DNA of 64,000 bases from a virus: the IMG/VR virus record IMGVR_UViG_3300008116_000004; one strand, 5' to 3'. A program made the position numbers and the translations under genes. Of this stretch, positions 1-1,397 are shown one piece after another. Numbering within the stretch: position 1 is the stretch's first letter; each line of letters begins with the position of its first letter. The notes beneath the pieces are model-generated. The model was not told the origin of the DNA. It saw only the letters and a program-made list of their open reading frames with translations, and ran no database searches.

Positions 1-63
1 TAGGATTCGAACCTACAACCGCTCGATTAACAGTCGAGAGCTCTACCATTGAGCTACCACGAA
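1..63 (-). tRNA. tRNA-Asn(GTT), 3' end truncated by window edge
   Basis: Reverse complement TTCGTGG-TA-GCTC AATGGTA GAGC-T-CTCGA CT GTT AA TCGAG-CGGTT-GTAGG TTCGAAT CCTA: D arm, anticodon arm with GTT, T arm. Confidence 0.93.
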
Positions 64-69
64 AAACTT

Positions 70-305
70 CTTGTCTCTACAAGGATACATCAGCTATCTA
101 ACTTCCAATACCACTCGTTATTACAGCTGATTACCGATTCTGGGAAGCCTACCTCTACGTATAGTAATGCGCGCACGCTTCGGGCTCTGATGTACCCATG
201 AAGAGACAACTTACGTTGTCCTTCTGCCCTGCTGGAAACCACTTGTACGCTCATTCGAGTCCACGTACCAGTCAGGGGTTGTTCTTATACACTCGGAACA
301 ACATC
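70..305 (-). ncRNA. Candidate structured non-coding RNA(s) upstream of tRNA-Asn
   Basis: No ORF in the track. Long terminal helix TTGTCTCT..GGGTACATCAG / CTGATGTATCC..AGAGACAA (about 71-209, G-U pairs favour the minus strand). Nested stems CCCTG/CAGGG, CTGG/CCAG, TACG/CGTA. Sits downstream of a sigma70-like promoter. Confidence 0.5.
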
Positions 306-312
306 GATTATT

Positions 313-341
313 AATATAGTAAATTTGCAAATTATAATCAA
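313..341 (-). promoter_or_regulatory. sigma70-like early promoter TTGATT-N17-TATATT
   Basis: Matches the recurring AGTTG(C/A)..N17..TATAWT early promoter pattern seen many times in this window. Confidence 0.65.
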
Positions 342-357
342 CTAAAAAAGGACCATT

Positions 358-387
358 AAAAAAGCGGCTCTAGTTTCCTAGGCCGCT
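358..387 (-). terminator. Intrinsic terminator (attenuator candidate)
   Basis: AGCGGC-CTAG-GAAA-CTAG-A-GCCGC followed by TTTTTT on the minus strand. Confidence 0.8.
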
Positions 388-416
388 CAACGTTTGTAAG
401 ACTATAACTATCTAAC

Positions 417-521
417 TTACGTTGAGCGCTCCATATCTTCTGACCATACGCCAGCATTCGGAGCAATCTGTCCGTTAAATGTTTGGCGATAGGTGTGTTT
501 CAGACACGATAGAGTTAGCAT
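417..521 (-). CDS. Putative 34-aa leader peptide MLTLSCLKHTYRQTFNGQIAPNAGVWSEDMERST
   Basis: Read manually. Downstream of the TATAAATA late promoter; its stop codon overlaps the antiterminator arm. Confidence 0.5.
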   Translation of the reverse strand: MLTLSCLKHTYRQTFNGQIAPNAGVWSEDMERST

Positions 522-568
522 TTAATGTTCCGTTTTGTAGTGACAAAATGGTATATTACCATTAAATC

Positions 569-576
569 TATTTATA
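569..576 (-). promoter_or_regulatory. T4-type late promoter TATAAATA
   Basis: Exact gp55 consensus on the minus strand. Confidence 0.7.
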
Positions 577-621
577 CGATTTTGACACTACACTCAGCAA
601 AAAAAAATAATTTAATTGTAA

Positions 622-644
622 TGGGAGGGGAATGACCCCTCCCA
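622..644 (-). terminator. Hairpin, probable terminator after 656..1063
   Basis: tgggagggg-aatga-cccctccca inverted repeat. Confidence 0.6.
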
Positions 645-655
645 ATAATTACTTA

Positions 656-1063
656 TTATTCAGCACCAGCGATGAACTTACGAACAGGGGCTGTAAGAGA
701 ATTTACATACTCTTGTGAATCATCAAGCATTTGATCAATGACCGGTTGAAGTTCGGCACGCTTAGCCAAACGAGCTTCCTCACGCTGAGATGAAGATACA
801 CGCTTCATAGTGTCAAGGTTCTTAGCCTTAATGCCAACATCCTTAAGCAGCTTTGAAACAGATACTTCCTTTGTCTTAACCTTAGCAGCCTTTACTGCCT
901 TAGGAACATCTCCCTTTGCCAATTTCTTATTAGCATTATACAAATAGACCTGAGCGTTAGACTTAGTAACGTTCAAAGTTTTCATGATCTTTGCGACCAT
1001 ATCTTCTTTGTTATAATCAGGTTCAACTTTGATGAAGTTGATAACAGTATTGATATTAGACAT
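656..1063 (-). CDS. Early, Lys/Ala-rich hypothetical protein, possible DNA-binding protein
   Basis: GGAG RBS, early promoter at 1095-1122, helix-turn-helix-like N-terminus and a KAVKAAKVK stretch. Confidence 0.75.
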   Translation of the reverse strand: MSNINTVINFIKVEPDYNKEDMVAKIMKTLNVTKSNAQVYLYNANKKLAKGDVPKAVKAAKVKTKEVSVSKLLKDVGIKAKNLDTMKRVSSSQREEARLAKRAELQPVIDQMLDDSQEYVNSLTAPVRKFIAGAE

Positions 1064-1094
1064 TCACATTCTCCATTTTGATGTCACATATATG

Positions 1095-1122
1095 ATTATA
1101 GTTCATTTCGAAAATAAGGCAA
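1095..1122 (-). promoter_or_regulatory. Early promoter TTGCCT-N16-TATAAT
   Basis: sigma70-like hexamers. Confidence 0.6.
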
Positions 1123-1130
1123 CTGATATT

Positions 1131-1397
1131 TCAGCAGTTACCCAGAATTTCTCTAGCAGCCGGGTAATCGATAAGTTCGGCCAGATCATCCAAGATACCG
1201 TCCCAAGAGAAGTAGCCGTTTCCAGCATGATTCTTCTGGACGATCTTAAGAGTATCCATAGCTGAAAGTTTCAAAGTCGTATCATTCTTAAGAATGTTAC
1301 CAGCAAATTCCAGTACAAAATCTTCGTCTGAATAATTCATGCGAGTTCCCTTCTTCATAAACGTATCGCTCATTTCGTTACTCTCTGTTCTCATCAT
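1131..1397 (-). CDS. Hypothetical early protein
   Basis: ORF directly downstream of the promoter at 1404-1432. Confidence 0.6.
   Translation of the reverse strand: MMRTESNEMSDTFMKKGTRMNYSDEDFVLEFAGNILKNDTTLKLSAMDTLKIVQKNHAGNGYFSWDGILDDLAELIDYPAAREILGNC

What the first reader, a model, noticed from the sequence alone, without database searches (positions are those of the whole stretch)
358..576. Leader-peptide attenuator controlling late read-through into the ncRNA/tRNA locus
Seen: late promoter TATAAATA (569-576), then a 34-codon ORF (521-417), then a perfect 10-bp inverted repeat CGCTCAACGT/ACGTTGAGCG (428-419 and 393-384). The 5' arm covers the last codons and stop of the ORF. The 3' arm overlaps the stem of a GC-rich terminator with a U6 tail (387-358), so the two hairpins are mutually exclusive. 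Known: this is the geometry of ribosome-mediated attenuation. Inference: a ribosome reaching the stop codon masks the antiterminator and transcription stops, while stalling or failed translation allows read-through into the tRNA genes. The phage would then make extra tRNA only when translation is impaired, for example by host anticodon nucleases. The peptide uses many different amino acids rather than a run of one, consistent with a general sensor. I know of no characterised phage tRNA attenuator.
Basis: partly seen in the sequence, partly recalled or inferred. Interest (0 to 1): 0.7.

Follow-up and report, generated by a model that had tools for sequence, protein, structure and literature searches.

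The report
Leader-peptide switch before phage tRNA genes
A 34-codon gene that uses all 20 amino acids and ends inside an RNA hairpin competing with a transcription stop sits in front of this freshwater T4-like phage's small-RNA/tRNA gene array; the same layout recurs in at least eleven diverged relatives, so it probably lets transcription run on towards the tRNA genes when ribosomes are slow.

Summary
In 21 elements from about 11 sequence-diverged lineages of uncultured freshwater T4-like phages, a TATAAATA box is followed by a 23-42-codon ORF. The ORF's stop codon lies in or just after the start of the 5' arm of a hairpin (H1). H1's 3' arm overlaps the 5' arm of an intrinsic terminator by 2-10 nt. 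The stop-to-terminator distance is always 26-32 nt. The module always heads a conserved small RNA (RNA-B) and a 10-21-gene tRNA array. The leaders are unusually rich in different amino acids; the window's has all 20 in 34 codons. In some lineages RNA-B has no promoter of its own.

Ribosome-mediated attenuation is therefore the best explanation (confidence about 0.6), but it is inferred, not shown. Caveats:
- The overlap in this window is only 3-4 nt.
- Equilibrium folding mostly favours the terminator.
- A conserved sigma70-type promoter lies between the terminator and RNA-B here.

I found no published phage tRNA attenuator. Notes from this scan report the same kind of element on other DNA.

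The parts
569..576 (-). T4-type late promoter box TATAAATA. A weak possible -35 element, TTGCTG, lies at 600-595 with an 18-nt spacer.
   Evidence: Sequence. All 6 TATAAATA copies in the window are on the coding strand, and those checked lie upstream of genes. TATAAATA is kept in L010, L034, L012, L017, L043, L073, L050 and others. Some variants have TATATAAG or TATATATG instead.
547..563 (-). Hairpin at the 5' end of the transcript (AAUGGUA-AUA-UACCAUU).
   Evidence: A hairpin sits at this place in every variant of the window's clade, with a completely different sequence in each.
417..521 (-). Leader ORF of 34 codons plus TAA. It contains all 20 amino acids. A GGA (531-529) lies 7 nt upstream of the AUG.
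   Evidence: The ORF is open with the same length in 15 close variants. In diverged relatives it is 23-42 codons, indels are multiples of 3, and there are synonymous changes. A shuffle null gives about 2% per lineage for such an ORF; it was seen in 11 of 11. Amino-acid diversity has P=0.00085.
350..360 (-). 3' strand of the long-range helix P1 (UUUAAUGGUCC). It pairs with 531-521 (GGAACAUUAAA), which holds the SD-like GGA, the spacer and the A of the AUG.
   Evidence: Five covarying pairs. Cognate duplexes average -11.6 kcal/mol against -7.8 for non-cognate ones; 0 of 2000 permutations reached the observed mean. L043 lacks both strands together. L073 and L085 have the helix with other sequences.
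431..514 (-). Structured core inside the ORF. P2 pairs 514-509 with 436-431. P3 pairs 493-485 with 452-445. Hairpin P3a pairs 474-471 with 462-459. An invariant GCGUAUGG includes the Trp codon at 446-444.
   Evidence: Five of the six P2 pairs covary, P3a has one compensatory pair, and 95.6% of cells are paired. The P3a stem is kept with changed sequences in other lineages.
384..428 (-). Hairpin H1, the candidate antiterminator. The core is 424-419 with 393-388, and an upper stem pairs 416-410 with 402-396. The stop codon 419-417 sits at the top of the 5' arm.
   Evidence: Two covarying pairs. In 21 of 21 elements a hairpin with this geometry forms in the nascent fold and sequesters 2-10 nt of the terminator's 5' arm.
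358..387 (-). Intrinsic terminator T. The stem pairs 387/386-378 with 373-364/363, the loop is a GAAA tetraloop at 377-374, and the U6 tract is 363-358.
   Evidence: Stem energy is -14.4 kcal/mol. The sequence is invariant in 15 variants. A modelled ribosome at the stop codon raises the probability of the pairs next to the U-tract from 0.27 to 1.0. RNA-library contigs end at 358 and 360, and others bridge the site.
344..349 (-). Second U-run, directly after the 3' strand of P1.
   Evidence: A run of 4-7 T follows P1 in 13 of 15 variants. Its role is inferred only.
313..341 (-). Sigma70-type promoter TTGATT-17-TATATT for the downstream RNA-B and tRNA-Asn.
   Evidence: Found by the promoter scan. 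In relatives the -35 element varies towards the consensus TTGACA. It is absent in L046, L064, L076 and L078, where RNA-B follows the terminator within about 10 nt.
1..306 (-). Candidate regulated target: the conserved small RNA 'RNA-B' (about 306-70) and the start of the tRNA array (tRNA-Asn GTT, 63-1, cut by the window edge).
   Evidence: Rfam tRNA hit. RNA-B is conserved in more than 30 contigs. Arrays of 10-21 tRNA genes follow in relatives.

Best explanation
This is a ribosome-operated transcription attenuator at the head of the phage's small-RNA/tRNA array.

Proposed mechanism:
1. Late (gp55-type) transcription from TATAAATA produces a leader RNA with a 34-codon ORF that samples all 20 amino acids.
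2. If the leading ribosome keeps pace and reaches the last codons or the stop (419-417), it covers the 5' arm of hairpin H1 (428-419). The shared bases 387-384 are then free, the full terminator (387-363 plus U6) forms, and transcription ends at about 358.
3. If the ribosome is absent or stalled nine or more codons upstream, H1 forms first and holds the terminator bases next to the U-tract. Part of the polymerases then read through into RNA-B and the tRNA genes.
4. On read-through RNA, helix P1 (531-521 with 360-350) closes the leader and hides its ribosome-binding site and AUG.

Shown: the anatomy, its conservation and covariation, the reality of the ORF, its amino-acid diversity, and its link to the tRNA arrays. 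Inferred: the dependence on ribosomes, the polarity of the switch, and the role of P1.
For: (1) Geometry is conserved despite sequence turnover. In 21 elements from about 11 lineages the stop-to-terminator distance is 26-32 nt. The H1 5' arm starts 1-13 nt before the stop, and H1 sequesters 2-10 nt of the terminator's 5' arm. In the L043 clade a perfect three-segment design is present: GAGCGC ... GCGCUC-AGGGAAACCG-GAGCGC-U6.

(2) The ORF is real. It has 34-35 codons in three clades, with indels of -3, -3, +6 and +3 nt and synonymous changes. An ORF of this kind arises in about 2% of shuffles per lineage and was seen in 11 of 11. In five lineages the ATG lies 4-5 nt after TATAAATA, which suggests a leaderless message.

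(3) The leaders hold 16-20 different amino acids. The window's has 20 of 20 in 34 codons (P=0.00085), and all 21 leaders fall between P=0.0002 and P=0.05.

(4) The module always heads RNA-B plus a same-strand array of 10-21 tRNA genes, whatever gene lies upstream.

(5) In L046, L064, L076 and L078, RNA-B starts about 10 nt or less after the U-run, and no sigma70-type site is found there. RNA-B can then only be made by read-through.

(6) Folding with a ribosome-sized mask at the stop raises the probability of the terminator pairs next to the U-tract from 0.27 to 1.0. A mask in mid-ORF leaves them at 0.13-0.16.

(7) In E. coli a terminator needs about 30 bp or more of distance from a stop codon to work fully (PMC4824070). 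The 26-32 nt seen here sits at that limit.

(8) RNA-library contigs from separate studies end at 358 and 360, and others bridge the terminator. This is a weak hint that both forms exist.
Against: - The overlap in this window is only 3-4 nt. The energies of the alternative folds lie within about 3 kcal/mol, and a state with a 9-bp H1 and a 7-bp terminator is predicted to dominate.
- With the whole RNA present, equilibrium folding gives the terminator a probability of 0.7 or more without any ribosome in most lineages. Antitermination would have to be a kinetic trap. Here a 6-bp toehold should allow quick branch migration.
- A conserved sigma70-type promoter at 341-313 feeds RNA-B and the tRNAs independently in this phage.
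- Within the window's clade there is no codon periodicity (15, 16 and 18 variable sites at codon positions 1, 2 and 3). Synonymous excess is not significant, and keeping the ORF open has P=0.18 under the null.
- Much of the peptide's 'conservation' coincides with RNA stems, for example N-G...P with the CGG/CCG stem of P3a.
- The bridging RNA-library contigs may be carried-over DNA.
- There are no experimental data.
Confidence: 0.6

Rival explanations
1. The ORF is an ordinary late gene for a functional 34-residue microprotein. H1 plus T is simply a compound 3' end: a stabilising hairpin followed by a terminator. The small overlap and the constant spacing reflect compact packing and the distance a terminator needs from a stop codon. 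Read-through is an unregulated leak.
For: The ORF is conserved, with a few recurrent residues (C, K-H, R, N-G, P, W). About 30 nt from a stop codon is what a terminator needs anyway. Equilibrium folding favours the terminator whatever the ribosome does. The window has a separate promoter for the array.
Against: Peptide length (23-42 residues) and sequence change greatly between lineages, while the RNA geometry stays the same. The recurrent residues coincide with RNA stems and an invariant RNA motif. High amino-acid diversity in every lineage is not expected of a folded microprotein. The module stays tied to RNA-B and the tRNA array while the upstream genes differ. Some lineages have no promoter after the terminator. 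A stabilising hairpin has no need to include the stop codon or to share bases with the terminator in 21 of 21 cases.
Confidence: 0.2
2. The element is an RNA-only device: a structured non-coding RNA, or a ligand- or protein-sensing leader. The P1-P2-P3 core would decide between H1 extension and the terminator. The ORF would be incidental or of secondary importance.
For: Covariation is strong in P1, P2 and H1, and loops are invariant. The region folds with z=-5.0. Nucleotide conservation exceeds that of the neighbouring protein, which is only 60-81% identical at the amino-acid level. There is no codon periodicity within the clade. An invariant GAAA tetraloop and a UAUGG-containing internal loop recall a tetraloop and its receptor; this rests on memory, not on a test.
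Against: The ORF is kept in frame through indels of 3, 3, 6 and 3 nt and across lineages that lack the core sequence. Five lineages place the AUG 4-5 nt after TATAAATA. Amino-acid diversity is high. P1 is missing in L043 and in the leaderless lineages, so it is not essential. No Rfam family matches.
Confidence: 0.1
3. The main role is control of leader translation or RNA fate, not of termination. P1 would hide the SD and AUG on any RNA that extends past the U-tract. Together with the second U-run it could act as a back-up terminator when no ribosome occupies the ribosome-binding site. H1 would be secondary.
For: P1 covaries and spans the U-tract plus 8 nt beyond it, so it can form only on read-through RNA. 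A U-run follows P1 in 13 of 15 variants. L085 has an equivalent 11-bp pairing with another sequence.
Against: P1 is absent in L043 and impossible in the leaderless lineages, which keep the H1/terminator geometry. It does not explain why the stop lies in H1 or why H1 overlaps the terminator. This reading is compatible with the best explanation rather than an alternative to it.
Confidence: 0.1

Closest known systems
Leader-peptide transcription attenuators of enterobacterial amino-acid operons (trpL, hisL, leuL, pheL; multivalent thrL and ilvL). Textbook knowledge; see also PMC1183508 and PMC3082878, listed.
   Same: The layout is promoter, short translated ORF, then an antiterminator hairpin that shares bases with an intrinsic terminator. 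The ribosome's position on the last codons decides which hairpin forms: fast translation gives termination, and stalling upstream gives read-through.
   Different: There is no run of codons for one amino acid; the leader samples 16-20 amino acids. The target is a phage RNA/tRNA array, not biosynthetic enzymes. There is no clear 1:2 'super-attenuation' pairing; P1 plus a U-run may play that part. The overlap in this window is only 3-4 nt. The downstream genes here have their own promoter. No Rfam leader family matches.
Ribosome-mediated attenuators that sense general inhibition of translation upstream of antibiotic-resistance genes (for example bmrB-bmrCD, vmlR and lmo0919, found by Term-seq). 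Cited from memory, not read here.
   Same: A short leader ORF without a single-amino-acid run, where slowing of the ribosome anywhere in the ORF favours the antiterminator.
   Different: Those respond to drugs and control ABC-F proteins or efflux pumps in bacteria. This one is in a lytic phage, behind a late promoter, and precedes tRNA genes.
The trn tRNA array of Anabaena sp. PCC 7120, induced by translational stress (PMC8421152, PMC10272220).
   Same: The physiological logic is the same: an accessory tRNA array is switched on when translation is impaired.
   Different: The mechanism there is repression by the protein TrcR at direct repeats in the promoter. The 2021 paper does not mention attenuation, a leader peptide or a terminator.
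pyrBI-type coupling attenuator, and the effect of ribosomes on nearby terminators (PMC4824070).
   Same: The distance between the terminating or translating ribosome and the terminator sets termination efficiency. The 26-32 nt seen here is at the measured boundary of about 30 bp.
   Different: In pyrBI the ribosome physically prevents the terminator hairpin, so translation gives read-through. Here the ORF ends about 30 nt before the terminator and the predicted polarity is the opposite.

Membership tests
Ribosome-mediated (leader-peptide) transcription attenuator | A short ORF that is really translated, directly behind the promoter. | tested here: inconclusive
   The ORF is conserved in frame across about 11 lineages, with indels in multiples of 3. 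The shuffle null is about 2% per lineage and the ORF was seen in 11 of 11. A GGA lies 7 nt upstream of the AUG, or the message is leaderless. Translation itself was not observed.
Ribosome-mediated (leader-peptide) transcription attenuator | An intrinsic terminator between the leader ORF and the regulated genes. | tested here: met
   A hairpin of -14.4 kcal/mol plus U6 lies at 387-358. Equivalent terminators are present in all lineages.
Ribosome-mediated (leader-peptide) transcription attenuator | An alternative hairpin (antiterminator) that shares bases with the terminator's 5' arm. | tested here: met
   Here 3-4 nt are shared (387-384). Relatives share 2-10 nt, including a full 6-nt exclusive design in the L043 clade. 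At equilibrium the terminator still wins in most lineages.
Ribosome-mediated (leader-peptide) transcription attenuator | The ORF is placed so that the ribosome's position selects between the two hairpins. | tested here: met
   The antiterminator's 5' arm begins 1-13 nt before the stop in 21 of 21 elements. Masking -15 to +15 around the stop gives a terminator probability of 1.0; a mid-ORF mask gives 0.13-0.16.
Ribosome-mediated (leader-peptide) transcription attenuator | Regulatory codons: a run of codons for the amino acid being sensed. | tested here: not met
   There is no such run. The leader instead holds all 20 amino acids in 34 codons, and relatives hold 16-20.
Ribosome-mediated (leader-peptide) transcription attenuator | The downstream genes depend on read-through, with no promoter of their own. 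| tested here: not met
   The window has TTGATT-17-TATATT at 341-313. The feature is met in the relatives L046, L064, L076 and L078.
Ribosome-mediated (leader-peptide) transcription attenuator | Read-through changes with the rate of translation. | not testable with these tools
   The only data are RNA-library contigs that both end at 358/360 and bridge the site.
Rfam leader and riboswitch families (Trp, His, Thr and Leu leaders, T-box and others) | A covariance-model match. | tested here: not met
   Only tRNA matched, in window 1-1200 at E<=1 and in five related loci at gathering scores.

The most novel reading that the evidence does not exclude
A widespread group of freshwater T4-like phages measures the cell's overall decoding capacity with a 'pan-amino-acid' test peptide. 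When ribosomes slow down on any codon, for example after host anticodon nucleases or tRNA depletion, the phage lets transcription run into its own RNA-B/tRNA array. This would be a feedback loop that ties phage tRNA supply to translational stress. Helix P1 would add a second layer by closing the leader on read-through RNA.
Probability: 0.4. Interest if true: 0.85.

Novelty: new variant of a known kind. Interest (0 to 1): 0.72.

Why it matters
Why phages carry tRNA arrays, and how they control them, is an open question. It is now linked to host defences that cut or deplete tRNAs.

A translation-sensing attenuator at the head of the array would be the first cis-regulatory mechanism described for phage tRNA genes. 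It would extend the trp-operon logic from sensing one amino acid to sensing any slow codon.

The family also offers a natural series of designs, with overlaps of 2-10 nt, leaderless or SD-led messages, and lineages with or without a bypass promoter. These differences make the model directly testable with reporters. The question becomes experimentally tractable even though the phages are uncultured.

Tried and rejected
- **Whole genome.** None is held for this window.
- **blastn against annotated phages.** Only the tRNA part matched. The nearest annotated relatives share about 64% identity in gp41.
- **'Pure structured ncRNA, ORF incidental'.** This was my working reading through. It rested on the absence of codon periodicity, P=0.18 for the ORF staying open, and the strong covariation. 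I abandoned it when the diverged homologues L043 and L073 and the non-homologous designs L044, L049, L052, L056, L070 and L085 all kept an in-frame ORF and the same geometry.
- **GUGU/ACAC hairpin inside the ORF.** It is not conserved (by eye).
- **Protein homology search for the peptide.** An exact look-up found only one of five peptides ever called as a gene, and it had no name.
- **Palindrome-pattern scan.** L006 and L007 were not examined further and are probably chance hits. Most hits of the 16-nt core pattern were also chance.
- **Genome collection scan.** No copy was found in 185,579 prokaryote genomes.
- **Leader codons matching the array's tRNAs.** The arrays cover most amino acids, and the leader also uses Ala, Leu and Gly, which many arrays lack. 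There is therefore no specific mirror (by eye).
- **Metatranscriptome contigs.** They cannot separate RNA from carried-over DNA and cannot rank expression.
- **Covariance model.** Not built. MAFFT misaligns P1 in four variants with a shorter spacer, so the P1 counts are underestimates. The swap test covers this.

Full report
**Observation**

On the minus strand the window reads as follows:
- TATAAATA at 576-569.
- A hairpin at 563-547.
- An A-rich stretch with GGA at 531-529.
- ATG at 521 and a 34-codon ORF ending with TAA at 419-417.
- The perfect 10-bp repeat CGCUCAACGU (428-419) / ACGUUGAGCG (393-384).
- The hairpin GCGGCcUAG-GAAA-CUAgaGCCGC (386-364), followed by U6 (363-358).

Further checks:
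- RNAfold gives the terminator stem -14.4 kcal/mol. The simple terminator scan misses it because of the bulge.
- All six TATAAATA copies in the window lie on the coding strand, and those checked sit upstream of genes. The box is therefore a credible T4-type late promoter. The phage is T4-like: its gp41 helicase is about 64% identical to those of Stenotrophomonas phage DLP6 and cyanomyoviruses.
- One perfect 10-bp inverted repeat is not remarkable by itself. The window has 18, against 5.4 in shuffles.
- The region 565-350 folds with z=-5.0.

**Close relatives**

The neighbouring 135-aa protein and three conserved DNA motifs retrieved 15 distinct variants of the element from IMG/VR and JGI freshwater metagenomes. 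No copy was found in 185,579 prokaryote genomes or in annotated phages.

The element is about 86% identical at the DNA level, while the neighbouring protein is only 60-81% identical at the amino-acid level.

On alignment A2, a structure of 53 pairs is 95.6% paired. It has 13 pairs with changes on both sides, against 7.0 +/- 1.6 in shuffles and 1-5 in slid controls. The covarying helices are:
- H1.
- P2, which pairs 514-509 with 436-431, inside the ORF.
- The small hairpin P3a.
GGAACAUUAAA (531-521: the SD-like GGA, the spacer and the A of the AUG) pairs with UUUAAUGGUCC (360-350: half of the terminator's U-tract plus 8 nt beyond it).

Cognate P1 duplexes average -11.6 kcal/mol and non-cognate ones -7.8. 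None of 2000 permutations reached the observed mean. P1 can exist only on RNA that has read through the U6 tract.

**A reading I held and then dropped**

Within this clade the ORF shows no coding signature:
- Variable sites at codon positions 1, 2 and 3 number 15, 16 and 18.
- Synonymous and BLOSUM statistics equal a column-recoding null.
- The ORF staying open has P=0.18.

On this basis I took the element for a structured non-coding RNA.

**Distant relatives changed that**

I scanned for the conserved RNA that follows the element, called RNA-B here. This brought about 25 more T4-like contigs. Upstream of RNA-B nearly all of them have the following:
- TATAAATA, often as TTGACA-16/17-TATAAATA.
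- A short ORF.
- A hairpin that contains the stop codon.
- A terminator that overlaps that hairpin.

The three clearly homologous clades (the window's, L073/L050, and L043/L075/L063) keep 34-35 codons through indels of -3, -3, +6 and +3 nt. They also show synonymous changes (TGT/TGC, CGC/CGT, GGA/GGG, GTA/GTG).

Other lineages (L049, L070, L085, L044, L052, L056, L046, L064, L076) have unrelated H1 and terminator sequences and quite different peptides of 23-42 residues, yet the geometry is the same.

Measured on 21 elements:
- Stop-to-terminator distance is 26-32 nt.
- The H1 5' arm begins 1-13 nt before the stop.
- In the nascent fold, H1 holds 2-10 nt of the terminator's 5' arm.

The L043 clade is a textbook three-segment design: GAGCGC (two codons before the stop), then GCGCUC, then GAGCGC-U6.

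An ATG-ORF of 23 or more codons ending 26-32 nt before the terminator arises in about 2% of dinucleotide shuffles per lineage. It was seen in 11 of 11. The limits were chosen after seeing the data.

In five lineages the ATG lies 4-5 nt after TATAAATA. By my recollection of T4 late start sites, this makes the message leaderless.

**Amino-acid diversity**

I counted the different amino acids in each leader:
- The window's leader has all 20 in 34 codons. Same-length windows of the phage's own proteins average 14.9 +/- 1.8 (P=0.00085).
- All 21 leaders lie in the upper tail, with P between 0.0002 and 0.05.

This explains why the rare residues Cys, His, Trp and Tyr look 'conserved'. It also fits a sensor of decoding in general.

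**Link to the tRNA array**

- Every module heads a same-strand array of 10-21 tRNA genes, whatever gene lies upstream.
- In L046, L064, L076 and L078, RNA-B begins about 10 nt or less after the U-run, and no sigma70-type site is found there. RNA-B and the array can therefore only be made by reading through the terminator.
- In the window's clade a sigma70-type promoter (341-313, TTGATT-17-TATATT) is inserted there. Its -35 element drifts towards TTGACA in relatives. In this phage the switch could therefore govern only the transcription that comes from the TATAAATA box.

**Energetics**

For the window, four local folds were compared:
- Full terminator with a 6-bp H1: -26.9 kcal/mol.
- 10-bp H1 with only the upper terminator: -26.7.
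- A 9/7 split: -28.2.
- A three-way junction: -30.1.

The hairpins are thus not strictly exclusive.

On the full leader RNA, the two G:C pairs next to the U-tract have the following probabilities:
- 0.27 without a ribosome.
- 0.13-0.16 with a ribosome-sized mask in mid-ORF.
- 1.0 with the mask on the stop.

Across lineages the terminator mostly wins at equilibrium even without a mask. Antitermination must therefore be kinetic, and it should be weakest where the overlap is small, as in this window.

In E. coli a terminator is repressed by the terminating ribosome at short distances and reaches full efficiency beyond about 30 bp (PMC4824070). The 26-32 nt found here sits at that boundary.

**Expression**

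Six riverine metatranscriptome runs hold parts of the region. In the four that were laid on it:
- Contigs from three runs, each of a different study, bridge the terminator (90-414, 168-463, 134-389).
- Two contigs from two of those studies end at 358 and 360, at the U-tract.

This is compatible with partial termination. DNA carry-over cannot be excluded, and contigs do not define RNA ends.

**Comparison with what is known**

- The layout works like the leader-peptide attenuators of amino-acid operons. It lacks their single-amino-acid codon run. In this window it also lacks their promoter-less downstream genes.
- It resembles more closely the attenuators that sense general ribosome slowing upstream of resistance genes (from memory).
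- Rfam 15 has no matching family.
- I found no paper describing an attenuator for phage tRNA genes.
- The Anabaena trn array is induced by translational stress, but through the repressor TrcR.
- Notes of this scan report similar candidates on other phage genomes. These are unchecked AI notes, not independent evidence.

**Verdict**

The comparative evidence is strong for a conserved unit of sORF, antiterminator and terminator tied to the tRNA array. The ribosome dependence, the polarity and the physiological trigger are all inferred.

Noticed in passing
window 70-306 (-); L008-L020, L043-L097: RNA-B is a conserved multi-hairpin RNA with motifs CUGGUAC ... GGUGGUUUCCAGC ... AGAAGGAYAACG-GNRA-like loop. 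It follows the leader in more than 30 T4-like contigs and has no Rfam match. Its first hairpin covaries between lineages (GUUGUUC/GAACAAC, GCGCUUC/GAAGCGU, GCUACUC/GAGUAGC).
   Followed up: partly
window 70-215 (-); L008 and L012 downstream of RNA-B: Repeated cassettes have the form GUUGUCUCUUCAUGG-[variable cargo]-CUUGUAGAGAYAA. The two ends can pair (UUGUCUCU/AGAGACAA). Some cargos carry a T-arm-like GGUUCGAAUCC. UUGUCUC can pair either within the GUAA hairpin or with the far end.
   Followed up: no
window 444-474 (-) and the homologous place in L043, L049, L050, L052, L056, L063, L073, L075: Hairpin P3a (a CGG.../...CCG stem) is followed by exactly 11 nt and then AUGG (the Trp codon) in 7 or more lineages. 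In 9 of 11 lineages there is a G ten nt before the U|G step. This matches the G-10 Y-1 G+1 pause consensus as I recall it. It may be a pause site that synchronises the ribosome and the polymerase, as in the trp and his leaders.
   Followed up: partly
L044, L049, L052/L077, L056/L089, L070: The leader ATG lies only 4-5 nt after TATAAATA. This implies a leaderless mRNA if late transcription starts about 6 nt after the box.
   Followed up: no
L044, L046, L064, L076, L078 upstream of the leader: TTGACA-16/17-TATAAATA is a composite box that could serve both as a sigma70 (early) promoter and as a late promoter.
   Followed up: no
L082 (oriented; between the terminator and RNA-B): A small protein gene with a strong SD (AAAGGAGG) is inserted between the attenuator's terminator and RNA-B. 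It has no visible promoter.
   Followed up: no
L041 8740-8814: ARAGORN calls a tRNA with anticodon CTA (reported as 'Pyl') in the array of a 223-kb contig. It may be an amber suppressor.
   Followed up: no
window 623-645 (-): The G/C-rich hairpin GGGAGGGG-UCAU-UCCCCUCCC lies after the 135-aa gene and ahead of the late box. It is replaced by other hairpins, or is absent, in relatives.
   Followed up: no
L003/L008 and L004/L005 between the 135-aa gene and the leader: Different genes are inserted upstream of the leader in different relatives, while the leader-RNA-B-tRNA order stays fixed. One such insert is a gene of about 140 aa; another is a longer ORF.
   Followed up: no
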